Of a stretch of 64,000 nucleotides of DNA, positions 15,849 through 64,000 are shown piece after piece (positions within the stretch are counted from its first letter, which is position 1; each line of letters begins with the position of its first letter). The notes under the pieces were generated by a model. It saw only the letters and a list, made by a program, of their open reading frames with translations. It had not been told where the DNA came from and searched no databases. The position numbers were made by a program, and so were the translations under genes. The stretch covers positions 1,323,197 to 1,387,196 of the forward strand of contig NC_090600.1 of NCBI RefSeq assembly GCF_000497125.1, given 5' to 3'. Source of the DNA: Spironucleus salmonicida (taxonomy: Eukaryota).

Positions 15849-18800
15849 TCACTGTTTAACAAACACACCTTCTAGTGCATCTTAAATTTTAAACTATTTT
15901 ATGAGACGACTTAAGATATACCTATCTAGTATTAAGACGAATAAGCTGAATAATAATAGTCCATATATTGTGAATACTAATAAAGAATACTTTTGATTTT
16001 CTAGTTATATAGATTCAAAATCAAGTATTTATTACATTATTTACTATAACATAGTAAAATTTTCTATAATCATCATAGCACTTCTACTTTCATTTATTAA
16101 AACATGTTTATCTCCTAAATAATCAAATATTATTTATTAAATCATTGAAACCTATTAAAATATAAATGATTCTTTTTGGTATTTAGCAAATAATAAAATA
16201 ACTTCATTTGTTGTTAATTAGTTAAAAAATTGATCCATAGATTCTAGTAAAATATGAGATGAAAAAGGCTAAATAGAGTTTGTCATTTTGATGACTTCTA
16301 TCTAAAAAGGATAGAATAATTATTATATTTTACTTGCTTAATATGATATTGTCTCCAGATTTATGATATTCTAATACCTATCCAGTTATATAACGAAATA
16401 ACTAATTATATATCCTACTAAACATGTTAAAATCGATATTTTTAAAACTAAGCTAAAAAATAGTGGTATAAATGAAATCTTACTTTAGTTCATTGTTGTT
16501 TGATAATTTTATTATAAATTAGTACTATTAAATAATTTTTAAGAACAAGCAATACAAAAATTTTCTCCAGTAATAATAGACTTCCTTGCTTATATAATAT
16601 CAACGTTATGGTTTTCTATAATATTTATTGATACATAAGGTGGAGGAGTTTTTATTAAAATTGATGGATCAGTTTATAACATGTATAAGATTGTTTACAA
16701 AATTTGGTGTTGCAAATGTCTTAGAGTACTTTCTTAAAATTCCATAACCACTAATATACATTGTTATAAATTATTACTATATGGTAAAATAGTTTTATCA
16801 TCTTTAGTGAAATTAACAATAAACCAAGGGTCTACCTCCACATATTATTATTTCAACTTTATGCGTTGTATCTTTATTTTATAAAACAAATATTATATAT
16901 TTTTTAAACTCGAAATAACCATATAAATACAGTAGAAAACAAATAGTAAAAAGCTAGTTGAAGTAAATTATACTTGTTCGATAAACTCTTTATAATATTA
17001 GGATTTATACTACTGAAATAGCTAAATTAAACCATACGTATAAGAAAAATACACAGAGGTATTTTAAATAAATGACCCTATAGTAAGCATTTCGATTAAA
17101 TTTTAAGGATTTTCTAGTATTATCTAATCATAATCTTTTTTAGATACAAATATTGAATAATCAGTATTTGTTAATTATTCATAATAGATTTATTAGTATA
17201 ATAGTTATGGTTATTTCTAAATAATTAAATTACTGCTAAATATATTTTACTACTATATATTAAGCAACTTGTTGTATGATGATAGATTTGGTAATTAATT
17301 TTAGAAAAGTAGTTACAATTCATCATTATACTTATTTATTTGACATAGCTATATACTACAATCAATCTCTTTCATGCTATATATTATAATAATTTTAATT
17401 ACAATTACAATCAAAAGTAATAATGATGTTATAATATAGCTAGTAAAACTTATTAAATGAGATGGAAATAACTTTTTGCAATATGCATAATAAAAACTAG
17501 AAAGTACAAAAACTATAAAGCAACAGAATAATGAATGTGCAAATATTTACTTTTAAGTTTCTAAATCCAGATTGAAAAATTATTGTTATATATATAAAAA
17601 ATTGGTTATAATTTATTATGTGCTATTTTACATTTATAACTATTTCTTTATTTATAAGGTATTTATTAATAAACTTTAATTAGTAGTATATAGTAGATCC
17701 CAATTTACAATTTATAATGAAATATTAAACAACAGGTCATTTAAAACAGTCAATTACTAATTCTCATATTATGTATACAAATTACCAAAATTTAGTGACT
17801 CAAATGGAATCCTAATTTAAGGTTAAATATTTAGTTCTTTCTCAAGATAGATTTCATCTTGAAATAATTTTTTATAGATTGGCATATATTATATTTCTAT
17901 CCCAGTTTAAATATTTCTCCAATCAAGATATGGAGAAAAAACATCAGGTGTTGGGAATAAAAAAAGATATGTAATAAGATTTTCCTGAATTTATAATTCA
18001 AATTAATACTTAACTTATTAATATAATTTTTAACATGTTTATAGGTTAAAATAAACATTACAGTCAGTTTGTAAAAATATTATTAATTTTCCATAAAGTT
18101 ATTCATGATTTAAAAGAAAATTATTATTACCTGTTAGTTAATATAATAAGGCCTGTTATTATAATTCCATAATTTAAAAATTTACTGATTCTGAATTATT
18201 ATGGATTATCTTAAAGTTTTTCATATATTTATTAACATCCATTTACTAAGTACAAAATTATGGAAATAGTGATATTTAAATGAAAAATATACTGAAAATA
18301 AATAAAGTAAGCTTAAATTTTATAGATCGTTGCTTCTTTGTTCGACAATATTAACATGATGTATTCTTAATAATTTTATTATTGGATAAATTAACTTTAT
18401 TATTATTTATCTGATTCAAAAAATCACATTTTTACTTAAACAATTTAATATACTTTTTATTAAACGAAATAAACATACATATTCCTATGAAAAGAAAAAG
18501 GATAACTAACATTATTACAATTTTGATTATTATATTATTAAATTTATGAGCATTATTAGTCTTATTAAACTTACTAACTTCGTTAATGCTATTTAGACTA
18601 ATAGGATTTTAATTATAGTCTTATATAATATTATTTTTTGAAATTAAGTTAATAACTTATAATGGTAAAGTCTATGTAATATTGAATTATTAATTACTAG
18701 AAAGTTACATAATATTTAATTACTACGACTATATTACTTAAATACTTGTGTCATATATAAGATCTCTTTATAGTTTGTTAATGGAAATATCTTATAGTAT

Positions 18801-21800
18801 GCCTTCTAAATATGTTCCTTTATAATATAAAATATTTTAAAGTAAATATACAAATGACCCTTTAAATATTTAATGTGCAAATCCAAAAAATGGGATCAAA
18901 ATCTAAAATAAATTCACAAGAAATAATGATAATAAGCCAAATTGACCATCATAATAAAAATATTATTAACTAATTAAGACTTAAAAAAGCGCTGGAATAT
19001 AATGAGGCTATATTCTTTGGTTAATAATTTGTCTGGTTTCTCTTTAATAATTAAATATTTTAACTATTAATTATTTTTAAAATATTTTTGCAGTCAAAGA
19101 ATTAAATATTCCACTACTTGATATAATGTGCCAATATTATGAGAAAATTATATATTAAATTTAATTTATAAATATAAAGAATTAGTTAAATACTGTATTT
19201 GCCTAACTACTAAAATCTAATAAGGACTTCTCCAAAAATAATGAAAGGTTTTTACTAAATTAAAAGAACAATTTACTGGAGTAGTTAAAAATAATATCGG
19301 TGAAATATTCTAAATTATAAACACAATTTTATCTTGAACAAATTTCCGAAACTCTATATTTACTTATTAAGTTCACAATAACTTAAAAATTTTAAGAAAT
19401 TATTAATAATTCAAAAGAATTCAACAGAAAATTTGTGACTTCAAAAGATAGTATTTACAAGTAATGGAACAAAAATATAAATAATGCAGTGAAAAATATG
19501 AAGAGAATAAATTAAACACATTAGAAAGTTTCAATGTACTTAATAATACTTATAATTTTTAAATTATTAGAGTAATTGAATTTTTTAAAAGGTCTAAAAT
19601 CAGATGTATTAAAGATCTCTTCATTATTTAAATAGGTTAACTCTTTTGGTTAATGAAATAATTAAAATATTGCTAACGGATTATTAATAAAAGTTGATTT
19701 AATGAGATTGGAATCTTATTCATCCTTTAAATGAATTATACCTTAGTGTTAAATTTTTGACTTTATTTTAATTACAGATAACTAATTATCATTAACATCT
19801 TATTAATAAATTGATAGCTATTTTTAATGTAATCTTACAAATTCTAATTCTTATGTTATTCCTAAAATTAAAGATGTGTATGAATTTATTTAGTTCAATA
19901 TTATATATACATCTATTGATGACAGCTCATCATTAAAATATACTTTAAATTAAGTAATAAATTACAATATAGAATTGAAATTATAACGTTATTTAAATTT
20001 TTCCATAAGTAAAAATGATTCATATGAATAGTTTTCTATTCTACAGCATATAAATAATTATTTAAGCTAACTATTAATAGAATTTAATATTAATTTATCA
20101 TAGTATAATCGTAACTTAGTCAAATTATAACTATAAAAATGAAAATTTTCATATTATCTTTAAATTAGAACAGAAATAGATTTATGCGTTTCTATAGTAT
20201 TTTCTAAAGATGATTAATCTTGTATATATTAATTTTCTAGATAAGATTTAAATGTTCCTGTATTAGTAACTTATATACCTGTTGGTTGATTACGTTTAGA
20301 CTATTATTAACTATTTTATAAATATTCTACAAAATGAAAGTTGAAATATTTTTTTAATTATAACAAAGAATATTGATTTTCTTATAAATATCCATCTTAA
20401 TTTAAGAAATACTATATTTTTATATAAATGTTAGCCTAATCTGAAAGATGAGTTAATAGTTACTTAATAAATTTAATAAAAAAGTTAATCTAAACATCAT
20501 GTGTTAATATCTTTGAATACATGCTTAGTTAATAATTATTTAACATAACATCAAATGCTTGAATAATATTAATTTATTATTTTTATAATTCATAATAATC
20601 GTAATCTATAAATTCCTAATTTAAAACAAGTTATTATTACTAAATAAAATTCTATTTAATTTGTGAATCAATCTATTTCTATGTATTTATTATTATTTTA
20701 TATATTTTTTCAATAATCTAACTATTAAACATTGAATCTTTTGAAATTCTTATTTAGTTAAGCAAGGATTCATGTTCTTTAAGCTCATTAATTCTATTTT
20801 GCATATTTTTATTATCACTATGTTAGTATATCGCAAATTAATTAACATCATCTTTGTGATTCATAAGATTAAATAAGTAATAATAAGACAGCTTTAAGAC
20901 ATTATCAATTAGTTCTATAAAAATATTTCCTTCCGTTAAAAACATTGAGATTTTTGATAAATTTGTTCGTGTTTCGATAAGTTATTAGATATAATGTTTC
21001 TATAATAAAATTACTGTAAGTATATTATTATAAATTGTATTTGAACTATCAATCCCAGATACAAAATCATTATATAATGTGATAAATTGTCGTTGTAGTT
21101 AATTCTAATCAGATAAATTATAGTTAAATCCTATAACAGTATATTTTTATACAAATTCTGTTAAAAACCTCGTATTATTTGTAAGCTTATTGAAATCAGA
21201 TGATTTCATAATAATCATTTAATAGTTCTTTTATACTTAATTAAATTTATAAAACTTTAGTGAGAAATCATATTAACATCTTTTATTAACGGTAATAATA
21301 TTATTAAGCTCAATTAATTCTTATTTTCCAATTACTTTTTATTAATCTTATTTTTATTCATACTTATCATACATATTGGCACTAGCATACTAAACTATAC
21401 CAGATTTGTGATTAATATATGCATTTAAAGCTAAAACACTAATTGCAAATTATTTTAGTTGTTATCTTTATTATGTTCCTAAAATATTTTCATCATACTA
21501 ACATAACAATAACGTGTCAAATTAAATTAATTTCATAAATGGAAGCTTTTAACTTACTAATAAAAGATCCTTACAATCAGAATAATAACTTAGGATGTGC
21601 ATAATACTTTAATAAAATATAATAAGCTCCTTCCCTTTGATTTTCTATAAATTAATAAATTAGTTAATTTAGGTTGGTGTATAATATGCTATTTTTTATT
21701 CTTATACATCCATATTATAGACATATTATTTTGACTAAATTTAAGGATACTTGTCTTGGTTTAAATAAATATAGTGAGCCATTTATAAATAATATGATTC

Positions 21801-22778
21801 AGAAAGTTTATTTGATGTTGATTTTTTAAGCTAAAGATAAATTTAATCAATACTCAAATCTAAGGAAATTATATTTTACCATTATTGCCTGCTTAAAATA
21901 GACAAATGACATATTAATATAAAATGGGAAAGTTTTGAAATTTTTAGTAATGCTCTATTGTGATAATATATTCTACAAAGTACTGATAATGTTGCAAATA
22001 TAGTGGAACATGATATTGAAACTATTAAAAATTTGCTAAATGGTAGATTAATAAAAAAGTTGAGTAAACCAATTGCACTGAGGGACCAAAAAAATGAAAA
22101 TAGAGAAAAAATAATGTAGTCAACTACAAAATCTCCTATCAATATGAAATATTACATAAATAACACTAACATAAATGTAGTAATTACAAAAAGTATTAAT
22201 ATTGACATGAAAATATCTTACGAAGAAATACTCAGGAAAAAAGCAGAAAAATTAAATGAAAAATTATACCAAAATGCTATTGGAGTTTATAATGAGTGTA
22301 TACCATCATGTAAAAATAATTTAATATTATTAAATGAATAATAATCAAGCCAAATTATTAAGCATAAAATACTTGCTGCAAATAAGTACTGTTATCTCAC
22401 AAAAATATACAACCCACATAAAAAGTAAACGGTAGGACTAATAAAATTACTGAAAATTAGAGTAATCCAAATGTATATCTTAGACAAGTTACTGATGGAA
22501 ATAGTTAATTTAGAGTGTAAGCTAACCAAAGATGAGAATACTTAAATACAAAAATACAAAAATAACAAGCATAATATAACAATTTCGGCGATTCTGTAAC
22601 CATCTATGATTTTGTTAATAGAAATACTAAAAATATTTTACTATAATGTTAACAATGATAAAAATTCATTAAATAACTGCAATATAAAAAGACTAGGAAG
22701 AACTATAATAAGTCTATATACCCATAACTAAATTTTATTACTGTAAGCAACAAAATGTTTCTAAAATAAATCTATCAT
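15849..22778 (-). CDS. Large multipass membrane protein (~2309 aa); architecture resembles metamonad TmcB/PAS/adenylate-cyclase-type receptor proteins
   Basis: Code-6 frame checked at many points; includes track ORF 21882..22142. N-terminal cluster of hydrophobic helices, later TM pairs flanking ectodomains, and a PAS-like segment near the C-terminus. Ends CAG TGA (AGTGA). Family assignment is inference. Confidence 0.75.
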
Positions 22779-22827
22779 TACGTAAAACTACTTTAATAAT
22801 ATAATAATAATAATATAATAATATAAA

Positions 22828-24207
22828 ATGACATTAATATATGAGTACGAACTAGCATTCACGAAGATGAATATAAAGTTAAAAACATAATTCAATTAAT
22901 TTATTTTATAGTCCTCAATTTTATTAATTATAGAGTAAATTTTCTTTAATTTAGGATTTATTATCTAACTAAAAATTACAAGTAGTGGTCGAAAGTAATT
23001 TGATGTTTATGTCGTATACAGACTTTATTTTCTGATATATAGTTAAAAGATAGTTGTTTAATCTATTTTTGAAGCATTCACAATAAAGCTTAAATTGTTA
23101 ATTTAGATAAATTAACTATCTTATGCAAAGCATTAAGCAGGGCAGTTACTTATTGTAATTTTGTTCGCATCTCTAGTGGTAGTAGGATTTTTAACTGCTT
23201 ATTTCATGTATATAATCGTTGATTACTATCTTATACTATCAGTTATTATTGGGACCATTCCTTTGCTTCTATCATAAGGGATTGAAACCTGCATTAAGCA
23301 AGAAGGACATGTACATACTGCAGTCAATTTCATTCTTCTTAAGTATTCTATTCAGCTCTTTCTAATAATATTTACTAATTAATGCGTTCCACTATCAACC
23401 TTTACCTTAGAAAACCTAAATTTAATAATAATATTATATCAATTTGTGCCAGAATTTTTAGTAGGTGTTTTGATGTATTTTAACAAATCAAATATACAGT
23501 TTATTCTGTTTAGTTTTGATTTCAGAAATGTGAAACCCTTTAACACAACTGCTATTTCCAGATTCATGTAACTGGGACTCAGCATAACACTAAATCGTGG
23601 GTACCTATTTATTATTTTTAATATTTATCACCTAATCCTTACAAATGACGTCTTGCGTGAAATTTATCAAATTCAATTTTTACTCTATACTCTAGGTTTA
23701 AATCTGTTATTTTTAGTTTAGTTTTGCATAATTTAATCAATAAAATACGTTTATGAGTTCAATATTAATAATAATATGCTTCTATCGAAACTACATTTAA
23801 TGTTGAACTACGTTTTGCTCGTACCGTATGGAGTAGCCGTGATTGCATTTTAGTACTCGGAGGAAATCCTGTAATTCCTGTTCGAAGACTATAGAATAAA
23901 TGATGAAACCAAGATTTTTAAGATTCTAATTTTTGCACTATTAATAGTACAACCATATTTCGAGATGATCATTCTGCGTGCAATAAAGCTCAACAAGATT
24001 AAAGAACTGATTATGGTAGAAACAATGATGGTGGTTCTATTTATTATCGAGTGTGCCACACTAAAAGGACAACAGTAGATTATAAATCCAGTATTTCTGA
24101 CCCTCGTAAATGCGACCACCAAAGGCTTCATTTACCTAGTACTTTATATCATGTCATTTACAATTACGCACATGAAGAGGTAGAAATAATATATAGAAGT
24201 GACCTGA
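22828..24207 (+). CDS. MatE/MATE-like multipass transporter (~459 aa)
   Basis: AAAATG start, no in-frame TGA for 459 codons, many hydrophobic segments; size and motif (CIKQEGHVHTA) are MATE-like. AGTGA lies just before the stop. Confidence 0.6.
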
Positions 24208-31461: not shown

Positions 31462-31610
31462 TCTTGTTTGGATATTTTTACTCTTTCATTTCAAGTGGAA
31501 GTATGGAATGGCTTCGCTTCACTTCATCTCCTTTCCAATTTTCCACTATTCATTAATATAATATTATTAGAAAGTTTACACTTCTGATTTTATTTCTATG
31601 ACTTTAGCAA

Positions 31611-32753
31611 TCACTCGTTTAACCAACTTTCAGCTATACAGAGTACTCTCTCCTTGTAAAGTCCTTTTTTATCATCAGTACATTCAATCTCGATCCATGT
31701 ATTGAAGAATCTTATAATTTCCTCGATAATAATCATTTCATCTGATGGTAGCAAACGAACCATCTTATTAACACCATCAATATCTGAAATATTATATAAC
31801 ATATTAATCATCTTTGATATAGTCATTATCTTCTAACCATATTTACAAGCCAGTAAAAGTTAAGTTAGATCTTTTGGCGTAACTTGCCTTTGAATATTTT
31901 CAAAATATTTCTATAGTTAAACCGTATGAAATTGATCCAAAAACTTCAATAAAATATTTGGTTCCTGAACAAAATCTCTGAACCTACTAAAAAAATCTAG
32001 AGCGGATGCTTTTTCATGTAAAATAACATCATCCCTGTAAACTAATTTCCCATTAACACTTCCCAGTATTTCTTAATTAAGCAAAGAAGCATCAGTCACG
32101 GTCATAAGTTCTTGCTTTTTTAAATTAATATTTATCTTACGCGGAACATCTATATTTTTATTTATTTGGACGTCTACTTCATCGTCACTGCTTGTTGATC
32201 CTTCCAAAATTTAAACTTTTGTGGCTCCTAGTTTTTAACGACACAAAGCCATGTCTTCTTCATTTTTGGGATCATTTAATTCTACTAACTATTCATACGC
32301 TTCTTAATACATTTAGTTCTCCATTAATGATTTACTATATCTTTATCTTGCCTTAGCATATGTAGGGTCCAGTGAAAGAGCACTTTAGAAACATGCCAGT
32401 GACTCCATTGGTTTCCTATTTAATTTCTAAAAACATAATCCTAAATTAAAATATGACTAAGACTTAATTATAGCATCATCTGAATTTAAAGCTACTTCGT
32501 AACATTCAGCCGCCTCTTTAAATTTTTTATCCTTAAAAAATTAATTTCCTCTAGATTTTTCAAATTTAGCATCTTAATTTATGTCGACTGTGCCTCTCGG
32601 TGCCGGAAGTATAATAGACTCTCCATTAAACTGCTTAACTTCTTCACTAGCTTTCTTATCAACTATTTCTTATTTTGATATGAACTAAGTTAGATCATTC
32701 ATAATTTAATGTTACTTCTCAGCCTATTATTTAATCTTAATCTAAATGTCCAT
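31611..32753 (-). CDS. RPAP3/SPAG1-like TPR co-chaperone, copy 2
   Basis: Duplicate of 26579..27721. Confidence 0.8.
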
Positions 32754-33169
32754 TTAAAATTACTAGAAGAAAGTTTATATAAATTATTTTATGTTTAATA
32801 ATACTAATTATTATCATTTATTATAAACAAATTAGCGGAATTCCGTCTTCTATAATTTTTATAATACTTCAAAGCACTCTTATTTGGGTTATGCAATTGA
32901 TGATTTCATAGCAACTTCAACTAAATTCAGCATATAAAATAAATCACATAATTATACATACAATTAATATTAGTAATGTTAAATAATTAGATACTATAAA
33001 TACTTATTTAATATTTACAGTCAGAGCAATACTTTTATAGTAGAAGATTAAAATATGTGCAGAGAAACACCAAGCATACATATATTATAGCAAGTGATGA
33101 TATTAGTCATTCGTTATCAATTAGATTTGGATATTATTCTAATCAAAAAATTGGACGCTTAATAAAAAT

Positions 33170-47600: not shown

Positions 47601-50600
47601 TACAACAAGTTTGTTGCCTCCCTTAGGTTTGATAACACGCTCGCCATTGCTCCTCTAAAATTCGACGCATGAATGCGTCAAACTGCGAATTATATCAGTT
47701 CTTCCAGTCAATTACGTACAAGCTATCTCTAAAAGATCATAATTAGAACCCAAAATCGCATTTTGAAGGCTATAATATTTACCGCTCTAATTTCCTCCAG
47801 AGAGAACAATTGACGTACCGTTGGCGAAATAGCTCTATATCACCTTCTAGGCCCAGACCTACTATTTTACTTAATTGTTATTTTACACACAAATAGGAGA
47901 CAGAACTACCCCAATATCTGCCTTACTTCCCCCCAAAACCTCGACAAACTTGACCAAATCCGCTTCGCTGAATGTTCCAAAACTGCTCAAAATACGCACT
48001 GCTCCATGTGAAAATTATCCTTTTAGCACTAGCTCCCCTGTTCCTGCTGCATTTAAATGCGTCGTTATTTTCGGTAATTAACACATCAAATTTTACGGTA
48101 AAATCTTTACAATATTGGGTATATCCTGATTAATACTTTTAATAGTCTCAATTTGCTCTGGAAAGTCTGGATCGCTAACTAGAATAATTGCCAGACGTGA
48201 AATTGTGGCAGGAGAGGCATGTGTCACAGAATCTGTCTCAAATAGGAAACTAACAGGTGTTGGAATCTAGTAATCCATGCGTAAGTTTGTACCTAATTCA
48301 GCACCGTTTGCTCTTTTAATACTAGCATTAGAAAAATATGCTTCCAAGGGGTTAAGAGACATTGGGAAGCGGATTCGTTCACCTGAAGACAGCGAAAGCA
48401 AGCGATTGTCATCCAATGATGAATTAAGTGCTTCAATCCATCCTGGATCAATTTCGCCATCGAAAACAATAAGAGGCCAAATATATGGCTTTTGTTTAGC
48501 ATTTAATAGTGAAACTGCCTGTCTAGCTGCTCTTGTAAGAGCTCCATCTACCCATTCTTTCGTACTAGAATCAACATATCCTAAGAGTTCGCTTCTACTC
48601 ATACTTTTCGGGCTGATAAGGAACTCACGGATTTCTATGAAACCGTTACTGACATCATAGATTGCATCACGCATTTTCTGACGAATTCTAGTTTTTCCGC
48701 TTGCTGATTTTCCAAGCAAACCGACACCGGTTTTAGCCGTCAGAGCTCTGAAAAGCTGGATAACAAGCTCACCCTCTCTGTCATTGCAAGAGAGCTTCTC
48801 GGCTATCCGTTCTTCAATCTCTGAACTAGCACCAAATTTGTTCATTTTTTAATTATTTTCTCCAAAAATATCTCTTAAAATCTCTCCAAAAATAGTTTTT
48901 GAAATGCCTTGAACCCGTGAAAAAGTAGCATCAGAAAGTGATTTTATAATAACTTGCTTTTCTTGTAGCAAAATATCATTTGACGGTTTCAAACTAGCCC
49001 TCTAAAGTGCGGCCTAACGAAGCACAGCTTATAGTGATCTAAGACCCCAGTCCAGATGTACTTACTTAGGTATTCTGCGAGATGCTAAAGAATATGTTAA
49101 ATCAACCTTAAGAGCCCAAATTTTAGCAAACTGAAAACCAGATGTTGAAAGAATGGTCTCCATAATTTGTGAAGTATCTGCTTTTCCCATAAAACAAGGG
49201 CGTAGAAGTTTAATAAGAGAAAATGGAAGCTCTGAACGCCCTCTGTACTCTCTAGACGCTGGGTTCATTGTTACAAATACTGCTGAAAATGGAGAAATTT
49301 TGCTAACTGGCACTGATATATCAGAAAGCTTGAATAAATCATCCAAATTCACATTCTGTGACCTGTTCAAGATTGTTTTTTGAACATCTTCAATATCCGC
49401 TGATACAGCTGATAAAACAGCCGGTGAGAGTCTGTTTACCTCATCAAAGCATCCGACCGAACCTGAAAGGACTATTCCGATCAAAATTCGGCTTAAATTT
49501 TCTCTATCAATAGCTGAATCGCAGTTAAAAACTATACATGGGCGTGCTAATTTAGCACAAAATGCTTTTACAGTTTCCGTCTTTCCAGTACCAGCAGGAC
49601 CCTGTGGATTTGAAGATTTTGAAATATTTAAAGCTGATGTTAAAGTTGAATAACAGCGATCTGTTAGCGGTGTATGGATTAGTCTAGGAGGAAGGCCTTA
49701 ATACTCGAATGTGTATGGTAAAAATGTATCTAAAGAAACTATGAACAAATCTCCAGTATTTTGATAAACTCTGTATTTAAGCTCTCTGTTCCAGACCCAG
49801 GCTCTAGAGGCTGAATCTTCTAATAGAGAATCTAAAACTGCTATAAAATGTGTTGTATCCGTTGCTAATTGTTTCAATTTAAGTGACAAAACGTAATCTT
49901 ACGATCCAAAAGTAGCCGAGCTTAGCTATGGTGAATAAAGTTTGTCTGTGAAAGCTTTAAGGAAAGTTTACATTCTAGTTTTTGTCTACTCTAAAAGTTT
50001 GTTTTCATCTTTTTGACCAAAAATTGCATAGTCTACTTGTGCAGTGAACATAACACTAAATGCTACACATAACATCTCTCCAGAAACATTTTGAATGTCC
50101 AAATTTGCTTTAATGGAATTCTGAATCTCACGAATACAGAAAAATACGTCATTTTTCATGACATACGGAGTTATTTTCTTAATTTCTGAATATTAATTAC
50201 AAATACCTTCTGGTGTTTTTACCAATTACTCAACTTGAAGACATTTTAAAAACTCTTGCTTCAATGTTTACTTAATCTCTGAATCCAAAAGTCCCAACCA
50301 ATTCTCCGGGTTATTATCAATCACTACCTATTTTCGTAACTAAACAGTCTCGCCTTCCGGACTCGTAAAACTCACGATTTTATCTTCGTTTATTTACAGT
50401 TTTTCAATCGCTGAAAACATTTTTTTGATATGCGAATTAATGATTTAGCTGTTAGAACCCGCACCCGACAAAATTTCTAAAACATCAGAATCAGCCAAAA
50501 AATAAAATCTTGGGAATATAAGCCGTTTTCCTTCCAAAAATACCCGCAAAGCTGTCTGAACTTGTGCCAGCTGCAAACTTGCAGATTCCAACTACTAAAT

Positions 50601-53600
50601 TACGAATTTGTAGCACCCAAGCTCTTCAAATGCATTAACAACCGGCAATGAAAAGTTCTCGCTGACCTATTAACGTATCAATTGTGCAACCAGAGCATTC
50701 TACTCCTGCTCTTAAAACACGAATCCGACGACCTTCAAAGCTGCGTAAAAACGCCGTGTTTCGTTCATGAGCACTTTTCGAGCGATAACTGGCTCTAAAA
50801 CTGTAATTTAGCGCCCAATCTGCCCCTGAAGAAGCGCAAATTGAGTTACTGCTTCAATGGCGCAGTTCGAGTCCTCAATTGAAGCCATTAAAAATTTCGA
50901 ATAAGGAGAGGAAGAAACGCTAGCTAAAACTGACTTTTTCTCCGTCAAAGCGGTCAAAATAGGCTTCCACTGTCCCGTACTCGGAAGCAACGAAATTTCT
51001 CCGATTTCTGAGAGTTCAGACTGCGAAAATGGAGATATTTTAATGAGCGTGAACTGCACTTTCGCCTCCGATTGCAACCAGAACTGGACTTCATCGACCG
51101 CGCCTCTGATCGATTGCTCGTTTTCTGCTCTAACAATGATTTCTCGTGTGTTTTTAACGAAAGTTTCGTATTTCTAGGAAGAACCAAATTGCTGGTTGGC
51201 CTAGTTGAGCGTTAAGGCAGCAAAAAAGTGACAAAATGCTGCGCCTATGATCGAATCTGGGAGCTGGGAGCTGAATTGGTTGTTCTGTGCGTAAAATTTG
51301 ATGAATGGAAGCATTTGAGAACTTTCAACAATTTCTAGCCAGTGTTGTTTTGTAAGAACCGGTGATTTTAACAATTTCAAATTTTGAATGATCGTTTGGC
51401 TGAAAGATTGGGTAAAAGTTAGATACTAACTTAAATGCGTGCAAAACTGATTAATTTCGTCAATATTAAGGCCTGTTGAGTCTAATTAGTTTTTAAATCC
51501 AGATAAATGCTCTTTTAGAAGTATCGAATCTGAAGAAATTTCTTCTAAAAGGTCTAATCTGGTTTTCAGAGTTGGCCAGTCAAATCTGAATAATTCTGTT
51601 TTTAATTAAATCAATTTATCTACATGTAATATTATTTAGTGCATTGTTGTTATTGGAATGTCTAGCTAAATTATCTGGTTGATAACTGTGATTTGTGCGG
51701 CAGATAGGTCTTTTTGATAAGATTAGTTAAATAGTAACTACATTTCTTGTTCCATTTATTAAGTTTGTGTAGTAACTGATGCTATTGTTTACTACATTTC
51801 TGTAAATACTGTTGTCAGTTGACTTACTTATGAATCTTCATGATAAAGCAAGAACAATTTGTTATCAACTTTAAAATCTGAACTAACTTTAGTTAAATCC
51901 ATAAAAATAGATGATAATTTATTTAAAGTATTAAATAATATGTCTTTTGTATTTTTACAATCATCCACAATTAATGAATTTTACTACTGCAAAGTTGACT
52001 TCATTTCTTCTTTTTTATCTTCTATCAGTGACTCTGTACCTTATATTTTCTCCTTTAAAATATTAAAAGAATATGAACTTAATTCTATTAGTTTTAGAAC
52101 TGAGTCTCTTTGTGTTGATTACATTTAGATTAATTAGTAAAACTCTAACATATCATCATTTTAATTCTTAAGCTCACCAAGCACACGAACCTTTACTTTT
52201 TAAAAATAATCTCTTAAGTCTGCCAATTAAGCTGAACTAGAAATTGATGTTAAAGATGATTACATTTTTAAAGTAAATTGAGATACCTCATCAATTAGCT
52301 TTTATGCAGTTTACTAACTGGTATAACTTGCTGATGAAACAGCAACTGTTTAATATGCCATTGGAAGATCATTTAGGTTGTTCATCAATATAGATAAATC
52401 TAATTCGAAATTATCAAATTTATAAATATGCGTATTTTCATTTACCGAAATAATAGTTGGAAATTAATCATAAAGATCATTTTGAGGCGAAATTAAGTTC
52501 CCAGATCCTAAATTAAATAATAGTTAACAAGATTCCGGGCTTTAACAATATTGAGCACATAATTAATCAGATTTTTAGGAATTTAAATATAAAACCCCAT
52601 AATACTTTTGTTTAAAGTAGTTAATAATAGAATAAACAGTTTCAGCTTTTACTTTGGCTAGTTCATGCATGGTGAGTAATATTTCAATGCTTAATTATTT
52701 AATTTATGTCAACATGTCATCAGGATATATGAAGTAATCAGGTGTTATAATATTAGCACATTTATCAAAATGATCAATAATAATTTATTTAATCTATTAT
52801 TCACTAAAATTAAATTCAAAATCATTGCTAGTTTTAAGTTTTAAAATAGGGATATTAGAAACTTACTTCTATAAATAGGATACATATTTAACACTTATTA
52901 CTTAAGCAACTGCAGCAATTGAAAAGTTTTAGGCATATGTTGCTTATTCAGGTGGTAGCGTCTCTATTAATTAATTCGAAATAGCTCTCAATGTAGAAAT
53001 GGAGTTAATCCATAGCTGTTATTAATCTATATTTAAACTGGATAAAATCTTAATTTCTCTAATGAATTTCTTTCTAAAATCTTCTAATTTATCTACCCTA
53101 GCCTAAAATTATTTCATAATTCCATCTATATAAGATGCGCCTTTTTTAATTTTTTCAATACTGGTATCTTCAAAATTAAATATACTAGCACCTGCAGCTT
53201 TTTTCATCTCATTTTCAAATGCCAATATAGAAGGTTTCAAAATTGTTAATTGGTATTCTTATAATTATGAATTAACTGTATTATAAAATCCGGCTATATT
53301 ACTATAAATTTAAACCGCACTAAGACTACTAAAAATATACTTAATTTAGTTTTCCTTACCCTGAAGATTCAACTTAACACCATTTTGCTAAAATGCAACT
53401 ACAATATCAAAAACTTTTTATATTTAAGCGCTAAATGTTGCAACAGCTTTACCAGTATGCTAGTCAAAGAAGAATATAGGAGTAGGTTTGAACTCGGATA
53501 AATATTTAAGTATTTCGGTTTCTGCTTCTTATGTTAATTTATTAATATGCTAATCTAATTCTTTTGAATTCTCTAGATTTCTTGTGATTTATTATGCTTC

Positions 53601-54491
53601 TTTAAACCATTCTTTATCAGAAAATAATATACCGATACTATTAAAAGTTTGCTTAAAATTACTCTTATAATCCTTAATTTCTTAGAAGATATCTCCATAC
53701 GTCTAGGATTTTTATTCATACTTGAGCCCCATGAATAAATTCTTAATAGTATTCTCTAAATCTGAAAATGCCTTTTTAACTCTGGGTCGTTTGAGTAATC
53801 CTTTTGACGTTGCTAAAACACCAAAAATAGCAAACAAATTATCCTTATTAAGATTAATTGTATTTTCAAGGAGCTTTTGAGCAGCTTTTTCTTCAAATTA
53901 AGACATTAAATGCCCTATTTACTTTATTGTTGTTTCAAAATTTTCATCAAATAAAATATCATGCTATATTATGAATATTTCATTAAATAATTTAAAAATA
54001 CCATTTGCTGCTTATGCAGCAACTTATAAAGCTCTGACTCGAGGTGTAAACGGATGCTACCTCAATAAAGCTTAAGAAAAAAGGTTAACAAATTCCTCTA
54101 AATCTACTTGATGCAATTTCGTTGGTAAAACCTTTAGAATTGGCGTTAATTATTAAATAATTTCTATAGCAAAAGCCTCTCTGATCTATGAAACTCTAGT
54201 ACACCCGGCTTTCTCCAATGCTGTCGTATCTAAGGATTAACGTAAAGGAGATAAAACAATTCCCTATAAAATGTTAATTTCGTGTATAATTTTTTATGCT
54301 CTACCTTCATTTTATTTCTCCAACAAAATACGCTGATATAGCTCTAACTCTGAAGCTAGTGATCCTATTGGATAGTATGATTCCTACACATTTAATTAGA
54401 GCTAAGAATCTAACTATTAAAGCAATTACGCGGATGGGATAGTATTTGCCTTCTAGCAGGCATCGTAATATTCCTTTATAAGTTCCGTCAT
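41697..54491 (-). CDS. DYNC2H1: Cytoplasmic dynein-2 (IFT) heavy chain (~4264 aa; alternative ATG at 54515)
   Basis: All dynein-like track fragments share one frame. AAA1 NPQGPAGTGKTETVK...VFNCD...GCFDEVNRL; FVTMNPASREYRGR carries the dynein-2-type insertion; HLDWGLRSL; AAA2 GKSASGKT; stalk MPILEEATKAVSGIPNDAISEVKS. Confidence 0.9.
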
Positions 54492-54551
54492 TTGTGTGAA
54501 GTGAACAAAATTCATTATTAGATTATATAATAACATATATAACTTAAAAGA

Positions 54552-55313
54552 TCAATTCTTTGAAGGACGCCCTAAAAAATCAATTCTGATACCACATTTT
54601 ACATTAGCATCGTTATCATCAAACCAATAGCAGTCTCCACCATCTTAATTGTAACTTATATTATCCTACGGTGCTCCAAAATTATCAATAATAAAATTTA
54701 AATAAATGTTTTTTTCACAAGAGATAAGTTTGTTATAAAATACGGTATGATGCGTGCTGGCTCCAACTAATTTTGAAAGTTACTCGCTAGATAACTATTA
54801 GTGAAAATTTGTTAGTTTTTAATTAATAGCATTTTCTGTAACCATAAATTATTAAAAATCTTTATATATCTTTGGTAATTCCTATTTTAATTCTGATATT
54901 AAAGTTTTATAGTGTGGTAAATATTTAAATATTTCAAATTTATCATCAAATTAACCTTCGTTTAGACTAATAAGAAGACTTTTTGCTCTTTCAGAAACTG
55001 ATAGTTAGCTGAGTTCTTTTTAGTGCTAATCATCAGTTATATATTCTTAAAATTATGGGTAATAACATTATAATGAATTCTATAGAATGTTTAAATTTTT
55101 AACATTAAAAAGTGAGTGTAAATTAGAAATATTTTAGTTATTAATAGTAATAGTTGTTGTGAAGGATTCTGCTTTAAAATGTTACGTAAAAATAAATCCA
55201 AGATTTTCTAATTACGCATCTAATCGCATTATTAAATTCTCAATCTGAGGGTAAATAATCTAGATATCTAGTAATTAATCATATGCAAGTGTAAATGACA
55301 AGCAGTTGCTCAT
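54552..55313 (-). CDS. Hypothetical protein (253 aa), in frame with the downstream dynein-2 gene
   Basis: Code-6 ORF MSNCLSFTLAYDQ...CGIRIDFLGRPSKN*. Confidence 0.6.
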
Positions 55314-55386
55314 TTCAAATAATATAATAACTTATTTATATACATATTAGTACATATTATTTCATTAATATCATTTTTCACATATA

Positions 55387-55830
55387 ATGGATTTATTTTT
55401 AAATAGTTTGGAAAATGCAATTAGCAGTTTAGAATATAATCATTCTAATGTACCCATTATTGAATATTAATAAAATCATACATAATAATACAATATTGGT
55501 AAAGTACTCGTTAAACTAGAAATAACATCTAATTCATTACGACTTAGTTTCAAGTATAAGAAATGTTATGGTTTAAACAATTTTTATTTTTAACAGGTTA
55601 TTAATATAATAGTTAGAACCAATAAGTTTGCCAGATAATTTCCAATTGATGGATATTAAATTTCATTTGTTGTTATTGAAACCTAATATAAACATAATAA
55701 AGATAAATTGCTACATTTTTTTAATAAAATGATTAATCTGTAGCAATCTTATGATATTAATCTCATTGATAAATAAATTATTTAAAGTTTAATTACTGAA
55801 GATAATTAAACATAAAGAATAGTATAATGA
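55387..55830 (+). CDS. Divergent Arp2/3 complex subunit ARPC4 (p20)-like protein (147 aa)
   Basis: LEITSNSLRLSFKYKK, ARQFPIDGYQISFVV and KDKLLHFF are colinear with ARPC4 IEGSINSVRVSIAVKQ, LRRKPVEGYDISFLI and KHKLVDFV. Confidence 0.65.
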
Positions 55831-56691
55831 GCAAGTTAGTTTGATTTTAACTATTATTTGATATTAAGGTTAAAAGATATATTAGTGTATAAGTTTTATT
55901 ATATATTTTCTATATTCTTTATCTATTTCTAAAGTTAACATTATATATAATAGTTTATCAGGAGGCAACTTACTCTTTATTAGATCTTAAATTGCATTAA
56001 CTGATGATAATTTTTAAATTATTTAAATATAATTTTATATCTAAAACATTAATATCTTATATTATTTTATCTAAACATAGAATGTAAAAGATATTTTAGT
56101 GTATTTAAAAATCATATATAATATATTGTAAAACCATGTTTATTAAAAAAATTAATTGATTTATGATGAAATTAAAAAGATTATTTAAATCAAATATTGA
56201 CCATTAATATAAAATTTAAATATAACTATAGGTTGCCAGAGATACTAGGTAAATTTATATTTCTATTAATCGATAATTTGTTAGTTCGATAATGGTATGA
56301 TCAAAAAATACATATAAATATTTTAAGATCTAAACACAATATTCCTTGTTTTAAAAACTTGATAACTATTATGTCTTTGTGTCAATATTGGATAAAGTGT
56401 TATGATTTTAATCTAAATGTTATGATCTATTATTTTAATAAAAAACAGATACATACAAATATTTGTTCAAAATTTAATTTTATAAAGATTAATTAATAAT
56501 AATAATAATAAATAATAAAGTTATATTAGATCCAAAAAGTAGTTAATTTTGTTATTAAGAGAATAAGTACATAAACCTGTGATCGGTAAGAACTATAATA
56601 TATGTTATACAATAAATTTAAAATAGTATAATAAGAACTTACTTAATATATATTTATATATTAATTATAATTAATTGATAGATCCTCTAAA

Positions 56692-57933
56692 ATGCCATAT
56701 ACGGTAACACTTCATATTTATGACTTATCATAAGGTATAGCAGCATAACTTTCTAAATAGCTACTTAATAAAGAATTTAAGGCGGTATACCATACTGGGG
56801 TATCTCTACATAATACAGAATATTTCTTTGGACAGGGTATTTAAACAGGAGTACCACTTTAAACACCTTTTGGAAAGCCTATTGAATAGCGTGTAATGGG
56901 TACTACATCAAAGACTGTTAAAGATATCTATGATTGGATTTTTTCTCAATCAACAGATTTTTCTGAATCTTCTTATAATGCAATGACACATAATTGTAAT
57001 CATTTTTCAAGTGTATTCCTAACATTTTTAGGTATTTAAGGGTTTCCTTAGGAAATATTAGAGTAACCTGAAGAGTTTTTATCAACTTCATTAGGTAGCA
57101 TGTTTGGAAATATGTTTGGTGGAAAATCCAATTCACAACCTACTATCACCAATACAGAAACACCAAATAAAGAATATGCATCTCTTTATATTACAGATCC
57201 AAAAGTATTTATTTGCGATGACGAAGATCTTATCAACTATATTTAAGTCGTTTCTGAAAATGATGAAACTAAAAAATCCCTAAATACAATCTTAGCAGCA
57301 TATAACGAGTCTTAAAACTATAAAACGACATTTTTATTAGGTTAATAGAATAAAATTGCATTATACGAAGTTTTGGCTTTAATTTCAACCACATCTTCAA
57401 TAGAGAACATTCCAGAAGATCTCACACCTTCAAATTTGATCCCTTCTAACGAAACTACATTGATTATACCATTTTTCCGTTATCTTAATAATTACTTCTG
57501 CAACACAAAAGGCATGATAGATGGTCGTAAAAATATATAGCTATTCGTTCCTTTAATGAAAGAAATTATTGTAAATTAAGATAAAAATATTAAGGTCGCT
57601 GTACTGCGTTCTGCTTTTGCAATGTCAAGATTTTTCACTCCATCTATGCAGAAAAATACTCAGTTTTTCGAATTTTTGCTCAAAGAAGCTGTAGCCTATT
57701 CCTAATAATAAGGCAAGGAAAGTTAAATATGCCTTAATTTATGCTGTGGTGCCATTGGCAGAATGTTGATTTCGTTCAGCTCAGACGCTGTTTTGGCTAA
57801 TGAGTTAAAGCTAAAAGTGTCAAATCAACTGAAAACAGAAGACTTGAAGGATAGCAAGGCACCATGTGTAAGAGATCTTTCAAAATATATAAGCTTGAAA
57901 ACTGGGAAAAAAGATGACGAAGAATTTTTCTGA
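56692..57933 (+). CDS. PPPDE/DeSI-1-like deSUMOylating/deubiquitinating peptidase with helical (possibly PUL-like) C-terminus (413 aa)
   Basis: VTLHIYDLSQG...AVYHTGV...EYFFGQGI...YNAMTHNCNHFS with the catalytic His/Cys dyad. Confidence 0.9.
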
Positions 57934-62430: not shown

Positions 62431-63303
62431 ATGCGAAAACTCTCAACTATCCTTTATTCGCTTACAATTTTCGGGTTGACTCTATCAGTGTACTCCATCT
62501 ATACCCTATCATTGACACCATACTCCTAAATTATCAAACTCCAAAATGATACATCTATTTTCATATCAGAGAAATACGCTCCGTTTACACTTAAATATCT
62601 TACTGACACAATCCGCATCTGTGAACTATCTCAGTAGCCTGTATTCTCATAAGTTCCTTCAATGCTCACCAATTTTACTGTATAATTAGATTTTGACCCA
62701 TTCACTCACTTTAAACAGCACATAAGTGATTTTCAAGCTTACTAAAAACTAAAATTTAAGTCACTTACATGTTAATGTGAACGTGGTGAGTGTTATGATT
62801 TCGAGTATCTTAAATTTCATGTATACCAAAAGCAATCATTTTTCGATGTTCAACAGACGATAGCTGAGAAAACATTTACAATAGCTCTCAACAGAAAGCG
62901 CGAAGGTGACCTATAGCCTATCGAGCTTACCACATCAATGTAGGATTTTGCTAGCTCATATATCTAGGTTGTAAACTAACCTAATGAAAACTTTAGAATG
63001 CGATGTCAACTAGAAATTGCTGTATAGTAACTATAATTTGACCTATAGAAGGATTAATCATGCCGGCAATTTACATAGAACGCTTTTAGCGGTATTATTT
63101 ACCCACCAGCTTGGGTATAGGCGTAAAACCAAATCTCGACTTCAGTTCTTACCGAGTTAGAAAGCAAAGATATTTTGTAGTATAAGCGCGATGGAAAAAA
63201 CTAATTAATGATAATTGTAGGGATGACATTCTTTAGTTTCGTTGTGAGTGCGATCTAGTATTTACGGAATAGTTAAAATGATATCGACTTGGATGACATG
63301 TGA
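62431..63303 (+). CDS. Hypothetical membrane protein with N- and C-terminal hydrophobic helices (290 aa)
   Basis: AAAATG start, TGA-free frame, hydrophobic segments LSTILYSLTIFGLTLSVYSIYTL and LMIIVGMTFFSFVVSAI. Confidence 0.65.
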
Positions 63304-63327
63304 AATTTTGAAATGAAATTTGAGTTT

Positions 63328-64000
63328 TCACTCCAAAAGTCGCTTATCTATTGCGATTTAAGCTGTAAATAGATCATGATTTATGGTTACTGCATTCATT
63401 TCTTTAAGGTAATTCAGTCTCTGATGATTCTGTGAAATTGATTGAAAACCCAAAAATGGCGTCAAGAATGATGTTTTTTGCACGAAATATCCCATAAACT
63501 TTTTCATTTCCTTTGTAAAAAACTCGGGCTTATGTTAACCCAAAATCAGAGTAACTCCCTCTAAAGTCAGTTTCCTACTATAGTTTATGCGGATCAGAAA
63601 GTCGAAATAGTCACGTAAATCCCCTGCCCTGTTCAAAATTTTCTATGCCCCTAGTTTCAAAACTGGAAGTGGAAAATGGTCTTTAGTCTTAAATCTGGCA
63701 ATTTCAACAAATTCATCTGCTTTATAATCATTGAAAATGATCTGTTTCAGATTATGGGCCCTAGATGACAGTCGTTGATCATTTTCAAAGAAGCTAAGTG
63801 AGTTTGCAATCAAAATAACATTAGATTTTAATTCAAGAATCTAATATAGTTTCTTGTTACTTAGAAAGTCAGCCTCATCAAAAACGAGCGTTTTCCCCGG
63901 AAGTAGTTTGTACGCAGCAATTTCAGACTTTGATGATTTACTCAGTTGCTTAAAAATAGTATTATTAGGTGTCTTGGCGCAGTTGACTAACAGTGCCTTT
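63328..64000 (-). CDS. Orc1/Cdc6-family AAA+ replication initiator, 3' part (5' end outside the window)
   Basis: LLVNCAK...TLVFDEADFL...LY...VILIANSL...QRLSSR...IIFNDYK...AGDLR (Walker B, sensor 1, Arg finger, sensor 2); stop GAG TGA. Confidence 0.85.

What the first reader, a model, noticed from the sequence alone, without database searches (positions are those of the whole stretch)
55387..55830. Hidden, divergent ARPC4-like gene: possible remnant or cryptic Arp2/3 system in a diplomonad
Seen: a 147-aa code-6 ORF absent from the standard-code track, with four colinear motifs matching ARPC4 at similar spacing (SNVPIIE ~ HNKPEVE; LEITSNSLRLSFKYKK ~ IEGSINSVRVSIAVKQ; RQFPIDGYQISFVV ~ RRKPVEGYDISFLI; KDKLLHFF ~ KHKLVDFV). 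Established: ARPC4 and ARPC2 form the Arp2/3 scaffold, and Giardia and Spironucleus are generally described as lacking Arp2/3. Inference: the lineage may keep a highly divergent or reduced Arp2/3-like complex, or an orphan ARPC4 with a new role.
Basis: partly seen in the sequence, partly recalled or inferred. Interest (0 to 1): 0.85.

Follow-up and report, generated by a model that had tools for sequence, protein, structure and literature searches.

The report
Divergent ARPC4 gene in a diplomonad
A small gene that is readable only when TAA and TAG encode glutamine gives a very diverged relative of ARPC4, a core scaffold protein of the actin-branching Arp2/3 complex, in a relative of Giardia, so Giardia's lack of this machinery may not hold for all diplomonads.

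Summary
The ORF is real: window 55387..55830 (+), 147 aa under code 6, with 14 in-frame TAA/TAG codons and no standard-code ORF at the locus.

ORF length alone means little, because 99 code-6 ORFs of at least 147 aa lie in the window. The similarity carries the case. Pfam ARPC4 (PF05856) scores 30 bits, E 4.6e-7, above its curated cut-off of 22.2. The three best PDB sequence matches are all ARPC4 chains.

As a control I scanned 149 other ORFs of similar size. Only four evident real genes reached a curated cut-off. Codon usage favours this frame only.

The host is a hexamitine diplomonad, most likely Spironucleus salmonicida.

Weak points:
- Only the middle of the protein (residues 39-115) aligns.
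- Two single-sequence AlphaFold models were poor, and Foldseek did not return ARPC4.
- An exhaustive search found no relative.
- The ORF's GC content is 0.20.
- No other Arp2/3 subunit lies in the window, and the rest of the genome could not be searched.

The protein already sits in public collections with a Pfam label.

Verdict: a genuine, very divergent ARPC4-family gene. Whether a cryptic Arp2/3 complex exists is open.

The parts
55387..55830 (+). Complete ORF (ATG to TGA) of 147 aa under genetic code 6: a divergent ARPC4 (p20-Arc) family protein, P0001
   Evidence: Searches give the ORF and its 14 in-frame TAA/TAG codons. One search gives PF05856 at 30 bits against a cut-off of 22.2. Codon-usage score is +0.095 per codon in this frame and negative in the other five. 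It is single copy in the window.
55507..55731 (+). Core that matches the ARPC4 profile (residues 41-115, Pfam positions 60-138 of 167)
   Evidence: One search aligns residues 39-115 with chains 9dlx_F and 1k8k_F at positions 57/58-141/142. By my count of the match line, 24 of the 77 query residues are identical. Four of the in-frame TAA codons (Q69, Q84, Q91, Q100) lie inside this block.
55516..55563 (+). Motif LEITSNSLRLSFKYKK (residues 44-59), two predicted beta strands
   Evidence: HMMER pairs it with IEGSINSVRVSIAVKQ of ARPC4. Strands E40-46 and E50-57 appear in both AF2 models.
55633..55674 (+). Motif RQFPIDGYQISFVV (residues 83-96), the best conserved block
   Evidence: HMMER pairs it with RRKPVEGYDISFLI of bovine/human ARPC4 and RRKPVQGYDISFLI of the S. 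pombe chain. Strand E89-96 appears in the models.
55687..55722 (+). Start of the predicted long C-terminal helix, YKHNKDKLLHFF (residues 101-112)
   Evidence: HMMER pairs it with YKHKLvDFVIHFM. Helix H105-122 or H102-123.
55387..55506 (+). N-terminal 40 residues with no detectable similarity, about 19 residues shorter than the equivalent part of canonical ARPC4
   Evidence: Outside the Pfam and PDB alignments. Residues 1-45 alone give 0 PDB hits at E<=10. Predicted helix 3-17, low pLDDT.
55732..55827 (+). C-terminal 32 residues, predicted helical, with no detectable similarity
   Evidence: Residues 100-147 alone give 0 PDB hits at E<=10. pLDDT is below 50 for residues 137-147.
55356..55386 (.). 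31-bp AT-rich spacer between the ARPC4 ATG and the ATG of the divergently oriented 267-aa ORF 54552..55355(-)
   Evidence: No promoter element was established.

Best explanation
The ORF is a genuine, intact, single-copy gene for a very diverged member of the ARPC4 (p20-Arc) family. It sits in a hexamitine diplomonad genome, most likely Spironucleus salmonicida, and is translated with TAA/TAG as glutamine.

The conserved part is the central sheet-helix-strand core and the start of the long C-terminal helix. In canonical ARPC4 this part packs against ARPC2 and forms the structural backbone of the Arp2/3 complex (established knowledge of the bovine complex, recalled).

The most likely working hypothesis is that it still does this job. 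It would pair through its C-terminal helix with a similarly diverged ARPC2-like partner and hold Arp2- and Arp3-like actin relatives in a reduced or atypical nucleator. That is the situation found in Plasmodium after the complex had been assumed lost.

Shown here: the homology of the core, the intact frame, and the coding-like codon usage. Inferred: expression, partners and nucleating activity.

My confidence is about 0.85 that this is a true ARPC4 homologue and about 0.45 that it works in an Arp2/3-type complex. The figure given below is for the full statement.
For: - Pfam PF05856: E 4.6e-7, 30 bits, curated cut-off 22.2.
- The three best PDB sequence hits are ARPC4 of three different sequences, all in one register.
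- Control. 150 of the window's 152 code-6 ORFs of 100-299 aa were scanned. Six had any family at E<=0.01 and five reached a curated cut-off. Those five are two identical zinc-finger copies, DUF6962, a TBCB-like protein and this ORF. The ORFs that overlap this one had none.
- Homology runs across four in-frame TAA codons.
- Codon-usage score is +0.095 per codon against -0.09 to -0.42 for its other five frames. It ranks 8th of 152. Only 1.5% of 1085 off-frame 147-codon windows reach it.
- Its length is 147 aa, against 167-168 aa for solved ARPC4 chains.
- Predicted element order is helix, three strands, helix, strand, long helix.
- In the ESM Atlas structure search the first row is an ARPC4 cluster, TM 0.48/0.43 over 104 residues. 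Three of the 10 rows carry PF05856.
- Lineage: a 641-aa stretch of the neighbouring dynein-2 heavy chain that includes the first AAA module (residues 1480-2120) is 65-66% identical to Hexamita inflata and S. salmonicida proteins and 52% to Giardia muris. The next hits are metazoan, at 35-39%.
- Precedent: Plasmodium was assumed to have lost Arp2/3 but has an atypical five-subunit complex that includes a divergent ARPC4 (PMC12222016, passages).
Against: - Only profile positions 60-138 of 167 align. The N-terminal 45 aa and C-terminal 48 aa find nothing on their own.
- Both AF2 models are of low confidence: pLDDT 57.9 and 57.0, with the four other models of each run at 34-44.
- Foldseek against the PDB gave 0 matches at E<=0.001 in both runs, with no ARPC4 among the listed rows.
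- Other rows of the Atlas structure table have similar TM values (0.41-0.51) and are unrelated families. The Atlas feature search gave only unnamed bacterial clusters below 0.9.
- An exhaustive phmmer run over 1.84 billion representatives found no relative. The 4 hits at E<=0.001 were the protein itself and 3 unrelated tandem-repeat proteins. Yet H. inflata and G. muris proteins are in the related 5.8-billion collection.
- ORF GC is 0.20, against 0.30-0.37 for the Pfam-supported genes. 14 of its 16 Gln codons are TAA/TAG.
- Its codon score lies in the lowest 12.4% of in-frame windows of trusted genes.
- No actin-family or other ARPC gene appears among the 177 ORFs of at least 100 aa that were scanned.
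- Nothing could be seen on transcription.
Confidence: 0.45

Rival explanations
1. Decaying relic. The ORF is a true descendant of ARPC4 but is no longer functional. In an AT-rich genome whose only stop codon is TGA, a dead gene can stay open for a long time while its sequence drifts.
For: - GC is 0.20, like the surrounding non-coding DNA and below all Pfam-supported genes at 0.30-0.37.
- 7.1% of shuffles stay open for 147 codons, so an intact frame is weak evidence of selection.
- Divergence is extreme: about 31% identity in the best block and none detectable at either end.
- No relative was found in the exhaustive search.
- No partner subunits lie in the window.
Against: - Homology stays in one frame for at least 77 residues without an indel-induced shift.
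- There is a proper ATG and a family-typical length.
- The codon-usage score is positive only in this frame and is exceeded by 1.5% of off-frame windows.
- Other clearly maintained ORFs have equally low GC. The 2494-aa ORF 15849..23333 is at 0.206.
Confidence: 0.25
2. Orphan ARPC4. The gene is functional but the rest of the Arp2/3 complex is gone. The small secretion-chaperone-like domain has been kept for another role, for example as a dimeric adaptor.
For: - The passages I read describe diplomonads, or Giardia, as lacking the complex (PMC2651865; PMC5461030).
- The termini, which in canonical ARPC4 include the end of the ARPC2-pairing helix (recalled), show no similarity.
- The nearest named Atlas clusters by language-model features carry DUF2299 (12% of members), CesT (22%) and YbjN (18%). 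All scores are below 0.9, so these are leads only.
Against: - No ARPC4 is known to me that functions outside an Arp2/3-type complex (recalled).
- In Plasmodium a supposedly orphan subunit turned out to belong to a cryptic complex (PMC12222016).
- Pfam at E<=10 lists ARPC4 and no chaperone-like family.
Confidence: 0.17
3. Chance. This is a spurious open frame in AT-rich DNA whose translation happens to resemble ARPC4.
For: - Open frames of this size are common: 99 of at least 147 aa in 64 kb.
- The sequence is compositionally biased.
- The structure searches did not confirm the fold.
Against: - E 4.6e-7 multiplied by the 343 ORFs of at least 50 aa in the window is still about 2e-4.
- None of the other 149 ORFs scanned reached a curated cut-off unless it was an evident real gene. 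The single weak stray hit was 17.7 bits, below its cut-off.
- The three top PDB hits are the same family in the same register.
- Coding-like codon usage appears in this frame only.
Confidence: 0.03

Closest known systems
Canonical ARPC4 / p20-Arc (Pfam PF05856; solved chains 1k8k_F, 9dlx_F, S. pombe 3dwl_F)
   Same: - Single small domain of similar size: 147 aa against 167-168 aa.
- Colinear match of the central strands, the middle helix, the R-x-x-P-[VI]-x-G-Y-x-I-S-F strand and the start of the C-terminal helix.
- Same predicted order of helices and strands. The comparison with the solved fold is from recall.
   Different: - About 31% identity in the best 77 residues, and nothing detectable in the first 40 or the last 32 residues.
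- About 19 residues shorter before the first aligned strand.
- No demonstrated partners.
Atypical Arp2/3 complex of Plasmodium, with its divergent ARPC4 (PBANKA_1229300)
   Same: The lineage was assumed to have lost Arp2/3. The subunits are so diverged that they were recognised only by pull-down and structure comparison, and a reduced set of five subunits is still functional (PMC12222016, passages).
   Different: - The Plasmodium ARPC4 domain sits at the C-terminus of a protein with a large disordered N-terminal part of about 40 kDa. Here the domain stands alone.
- In Plasmodium the partners and a phenotype are shown. Here nothing beyond this one gene is known.
Giardia, the diplomonad model without canonical actin-binding proteins
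   Same: Same order of protists. The neighbouring dynein-2 heavy chain is 52% identical to that of Giardia muris in the searched 641-aa stretch.
   Different: Giardia is reported to lack the Arp2/3 complex altogether (PMC5597967; PMC5461030). This genome has at least an ARPC4-family gene.
Secretion-chaperone-like small alpha/beta families (CesT, YbjN, DUF2299)
   Same: They are the nearest named clusters by language-model features, with scores of 0.85-0.87. One Atlas cluster mixes PF05856 (71% of members) with DUF2299 (21%). That ARPC4 and ARPC2 share this fold class is recalled.
   Different: All scores are below the 0.9 that the tool treats as more than a lead. Pfam lists none of these families for the protein, even at E<=10.

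Membership tests
ARPC4 / p20-Arc (PF05856) | Profile match above the family's curated gathering score | tested here: met
   30.0 bits against a cut-off of 22.2, E 4.6e-7. The public collection also carries PF05856.18 for this exact protein.
ARPC4 / p20-Arc (PF05856) | Match along the whole domain (167 profile positions) | tested here: inconclusive
   Only positions 60-138 align. The N-terminal 45 aa and C-terminal 48 aa alone give 0 PDB hits at E<=10.
ARPC4 / p20-Arc (PF05856) | Conserved core strand R-x-x-P-[VI]-x-G-Y-x-I-S-F and flanking blocks in colinear order | tested here: met
   RQFPIDGYQISF is aligned with RRKPVEGYDISF (bovine/human) and RRKPVQGYDISF (S. pombe). The LEITSNSLRLS and YKH..D..HF blocks are in order. 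That this strand is the family's hallmark across eukaryotes is recalled, not tested.
ARPC4 / p20-Arc (PF05856) | Small single-domain protein of about 150-170 aa | tested here: met
   147 aa, against 167-168 aa for the solved chains.
ARPC4 / p20-Arc (PF05856) | Three-dimensional fold superposes on solved ARPC4 | tested here: inconclusive
   The AF2 models have pLDDT 57.9 and 57.0. Foldseek against the PDB gave 0 matches at E<=0.001 and no ARPC4 in the listed rows in either run. In the Atlas's own model search the first row is an ARPC4 cluster at TM 0.48/0.43, but unrelated rows score 0.41-0.51. No alignment of relatives could be built.
ARPC4 / p20-Arc (PF05856) | Recognisable orthologues in sister species | tested here: not met
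   phmmer over 1.84 billion representatives found only the protein itself and 3 unrelated repeat proteins at E<=0.001. About 41 bits would have been needed, so a fast-evolving orthologue could escape.
Arp2/3 complex (seven-subunit actin nucleator) | Genes for Arp2, Arp3 and ARPC1, 2, 3 and 5 in the same genome | not testable with these tools
   Only the 64-kb window was available. None of the 177 ORFs of at least 100 aa scanned there matches an actin-family or ARPC profile. No reference subunit sequences could be obtained.
Arp2/3 complex (seven-subunit actin nucleator) | Physical assembly with ARPC2 and nucleation of branched actin | not testable with these tools
   Needs pull-down, localisation and biochemical assays.

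The most novel reading that the evidence does not exclude
Hexamitine diplomonads keep a cryptic, strongly diverged Arp2/3-type nucleator of which this ARPC4 is the most recognisable piece, much as in Plasmodium. The complete loss of canonical actin regulators would then be a Giardia-branch event rather than a diplomonad trait. The complex might serve uptake at the cytostome, or a nuclear or spindle role.
Probability: 0.4. Interest if true: 0.65.

Novelty: new member of a known kind. Interest (0 to 1): 0.42.

Why it matters
Giardia is the standard example of a eukaryote that runs an actin cytoskeleton without Arp2/3, formins, myosin or cofilin (PMC5597967; PMC5461030). A widely cited table lists all seven Arp2/3 subunits as absent from Diplomonadida (PMC2651865).

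An ARPC4-family gene in a code-6 diplomonad has two consequences. The diplomonad ancestor had the complex, so the loss was stepwise. It also gives a concrete handle for asking whether a reduced complex still works in Spironucleus: tag this one small gene and see what comes down with it.

The gain is limited for three reasons. Metamonad relatives such as Trichomonas are already known to have the machinery. Spironucleus is already said to have actin-binding proteins that Giardia lacks. The protein is already in public collections with an automatic Pfam label.

Tried and rejected
- **Word-index homologue search with the protein.** 1 of 6 candidates passed, and it was the protein itself.
- **Exhaustive phmmer.** No relative. 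The three other hits are tandem-repeat proteins whose scores sum over 3-9 stretches, so I discarded them.
- **ESM Atlas by features.** Best scores were 0.89 to unnamed bacterial clusters, which the tool treats as a lead only.
- **Structure prediction and fold search.**
  - AF2 on the whole protein and on residues 1-125 gave low confidence both times.
  - Foldseek against the PDB on both models listed no ARPC4. Best hits were NurA, acetyl-CoA carboxylase domains, the PscP SS domain (E 4.6e-3) and RavZ, which I took as noise from poor models.
  - I could not build an alignment for AF2, because no ARPC4 sequences could be obtained.
- **Termini alone against the PDB.** Nothing found.
- **Gene-boundary motifs.** Several real genes have a C/T-rich stretch before the ATG, and this ORF has no clear one. 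Inconclusive.
- **Rfam and tRNA scans of the window.** Nothing found.
- **Was the 267-aa ORF upstream the missing N-terminus of the dynein?** It is in frame with one TGA between them. I rejected the idea as unnecessary, because the 4279-aa ORF already matches full-length dynein-2 heavy chain.
- **Ciliate origin.** Considered because of code 6 and the AT-richness, and rejected.
- **Calibration with a TBCB-like protein.** The nearest non-self hit was 37% identical and no diplomonad-named hit appeared, so the word index is a poor guide to what relatives exist.
- **Literature.** I used all ten searches.
  - Searches used the phrase 'arp2 3', which probably cannot match 'Arp2/3', so their zero results say nothing.
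  - The rest found no paper in the held library that reports or denies Arp2/3 subunits in Spironucleus, Hexamita or Trepomonas.
  - The main texts of the S. salmonicida genome papers contain no 'actin', 'Arp2' or 'ARPC'. The H. inflata and Trepomonas genome papers contain no 'Arp' term.
  - The supplementary table on metamonad actin proteins in PMC6759080 could not be opened and may bear on novelty.
  - Two Paredez papers were not held.
- **Complex prediction.** Not used, because no candidate partner was available.

Full report
**The feature**

Window 55387..55830 (+) is an ATG-to-TGA frame of 147 codons under NCBI table 6. It holds 14 in-frame TAA/TAG codons. Under the standard code the only ATG ORF of at least 50 aa in 54500-57000 is 56918..57091(-), so none lies here.

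**Is it more than chance?**

Length is no argument in this DNA. With TGA as the only stop and 18-38% GC, the window holds 343 ORFs of at least 50 aa, 178 of at least 100 aa and 99 of at least 147 aa. 7.1% of 20,000 shuffles of the local sequence give 147 TGA-free codons.

The similarity is the argument.
- Pfam-A gives one family above threshold: ARPC4 (PF05856), E 4.6e-7, 30.0 bits against a curated cut-off of 22.2. Residues 41-115 align to profile positions 60-138 of 167.
- phmmer against all PDB sequences returns five sequences at E<=10. The top three are ARPC4 chains: 9dlx_F at E 0.0041, 1k8k_F at 0.0042 and S. pombe 3dwl_F at 0.15. All are in the same register. The other two are sodium-channel beta-4 at 0.34 and 0.42.

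As a control I scanned 150 of the window's 152 code-6 ORFs of 100-299 aa. The two left out are 62891-63229(-) and 63009-63395(-).
- Six had any family at E<=0.01.
- Five reached the curated cut-off: two identical C2H2 zinc-finger copies, DUF6962, a ubiquitin-like plus CAP-Gly protein, and this ORF.
- One stray hit (zf-DNA_Pol, 17.7 bits) stayed below its cut-off.
- The four ORFs that overlap or abut the ARPC4 frame had none.

Multiplying the E-value by all 343 ORFs still leaves about 2e-4.

- The first motif lies outside every alignment.
- Residues 1-45 and 100-147 alone find nothing in the PDB at E<=10.
- By my count of the match line, 24 of the 77 aligned query residues are identical.
- Four of the in-frame TAA codons (Q69, Q84, Q91, Q100) sit inside the aligned block. 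The homology itself therefore supports the code-6 reading.

**Is the frame coding?**

I trained a codon log-odds score on ten Pfam-supported genes of the window against their other five frames.
- The ORF scores +0.095 per codon. Its five other frames score -0.09 to -0.42.
- It ranks 8th of 152 ORFs of 100-299 aa.
- The overlapping ORFs score -0.047 to -0.07.
- Among 147-codon windows, 1.5% of 1085 off-frame windows reach the ORF's score, and 12.4% of 217 in-frame windows fall at or below it.
- The training was in-sample, so this is moderate support only.

Against it, the ORF's GC is 0.20, below the 0.30-0.37 of the trusted genes. The clearly maintained 2494-aa ORF at 15849..23333 is also at 0.206. 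The locus is single copy in the window and not part of a repeat.

**Structure**

No alignment of relatives could be built, so AlphaFold2 ran on the single sequence.
- The whole protein gave pLDDT 57.9 and pTM 0.51. Residues 1-125 gave 57.0 and 0.48. The other four models of each run scored 34-44.
- Both best models share the order helix 3-17, strands 31-37, 40-46 and 50-57, helix 65-83, strand 89-96, then a long helix from about residue 102-105. From memory, this is the order of elements in ARPC4.
- Foldseek against the PDB gave no match at E<=0.001 in either run, and no ARPC4 among the listed rows.
- The ESM Atlas holds the protein letter for letter. Its own model has pLDDT 0.49. In its structure search the first row is an ARPC4 cluster (TM 0.48/0.43, 104 residues aligned) and three of ten rows carry PF05856. 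Unrelated rows have TM 0.41-0.51.
- By language-model features the nearest clusters are unnamed or carry DUF2299, CesT or YbjN on a minority of members, at scores below 0.9.

**Relatives**

- The word-index search found only the protein itself. It is recorded on a contig of 1,732,135 bp and already labelled PF05856.18.
- The exhaustive phmmer run over 1.84 billion representatives gave four hits at E<=0.001: the protein itself and three tandem-repeat proteins that are unrelated.
- The protein is therefore an orphan in sequence space and is recognisable only through the family profile.

**Whose genome?**

- The window carries uninterrupted ORFs of 4738 aa (open-ended), 2494 aa and 4279 aa. That argues against an intron-rich code-6 organism.
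- The 4279-aa ORF is a cytoplasmic dynein-2 heavy chain. Its best PDB hit is human DYNC2H1 at 643 bits.
- Residues 1480-2120 of the dynein, a stretch that includes the first AAA module, find named hits in this order: two Hexamita inflata proteins (65%), a Spironucleus salmonicida dynein (66%), unnamed hits at 53-57%, Giardia muris (52%), then animals at 35-39% and Kipferlia at 35%.
- The S. salmonicida protein has a recorded contig length of 1,732,135 bp, equal to that of the window's own proteins.
- The window is therefore from a hexamitine diplomonad, most likely S. salmonicida. A ciliate origin is rejected.

**Context**

- The ARPC4 ATG lies 31 bp from the ATG of a divergent 267-aa ORF at 54552..55355(-). 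That ORF has coding-like codon usage (+0.147) and no family match.
- Downstream lies a PPPDE peptidase gene.
- None of the 177 ORFs of at least 100 aa that I scanned is an actin-family or other ARPC protein.
- The rest of the genome was not available, so whether the other subunits exist could not be tested.

**Literature**

I read passages returned by term look-ups, not whole papers.
- Yutin et al. 2009 list Arp2, Arp3 and ARPC1-5 as present in eukaryotes 'except for Diplomonadida' (PMC2651865).
- Fritz-Laylin et al. 2017 state that Arp2/3 is in all sequenced eukaryotes except Giardia (PMC5461030).
- Krtkova et al. [quoted passage not shown]
- Karnkowska et al. 2019 call the metamonad actin cytoskeleton reduced, most strongly in Giardia (PMC6759080). 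Their supplementary table could not be opened.
- The genome papers of S. salmonicida, H. inflata and Trepomonas do not mention Arp proteins in their main texts.
- My searches found no paper in the held library that reports or denies Arp2/3 subunits in hexamitines.
- The Plasmodium work shows a complex assumed lost that survives in atypical five-subunit form, including a divergent ARPC4 (PMC12222016).

**Interpretation**

I am fairly confident (about 0.85) that this is a true ARPC4-family homologue. What it does is inferred. My estimates for the four readings are:

| Reading | Confidence |
|---|---|
| Scaffold subunit of a diverged or reduced Arp2/3-type nucleator | about 0.45 |
| Drifting relic kept open by the one-stop code | about 0.25 |
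| Functional orphan with another role | about 0.17 |
| Chance | about 0.03 |

The scaffold reading comes first because ARPC4 together with ARPC2 is the structural core, and no role outside such a complex is known to me.

**Novelty**

This is a new, very divergent member of a known family in a lineage where its presence is not discussed in the papers I could read. The gene model and its Pfam label already exist in public collections, so this is not a hidden gene. Interest is moderate.

Noticed in passing
window 25804-30531 and 30836-35563: A direct tandem duplication of 4,728 bp at 99.98% identity, offset 5,032 bp. It duplicates a C2H2 zinc-finger gene, a TPR gene (identical 380-aa products) and most of a 930/998-aa multi-pass membrane protein with no Pfam family.
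   Followed up: partly
window 54552-55355 (-) and 41697-54536 (-): A 267-aa ORF with coding-like codon usage and no family match lies in the same frame as the dynein-2 heavy chain. One TGA and five codons separate them. The dynein ORF already looks full length, so this is probably a separate tightly packed gene, but a read-through or an assembly error was not excluded.
   Followed up: partly
window 2-14215 (-): An open-ended ORF of at least 4738 aa has only three weak dynein motor-domain matches (AAA_6 at E 6.5e-20, the MT stalk, AAA_5). It carries long glutamine- and asparagine-rich insertions. It is a very diverged dynein-like heavy chain.
   Followed up: no
window 15849-23333 (-): An uninterrupted 2494-aa ORF at only 0.206 GC, with many hydrophobic stretches and no Pfam family. 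A frame this long with a single stop codon type must be maintained, but its identity is unknown.
   Followed up: no
upstream of ATGs at window 25676, 39879, 25908/30940, 36068: Several Pfam-supported genes have a C/T-rich stretch (ccttcc-like) within about 25 bases before the start codon. Others, including the ARPC4 ORF, have plain A/T-rich sequence. This may be a promoter or initiator class.
   Followed up: no
window 41697-54536 (-): The dynein-2 heavy chain scores only 643 bits against human DYNC2H1 over 4279 aa. It lacks matches to several dynein Pfam domains that its animal homologues carry. A second S. salmonicida dynein, 66% identical in the searched 641-aa stretch, has the same recorded contig length, so a paralogous pair may sit on one chromosome.
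   Followed up: partly
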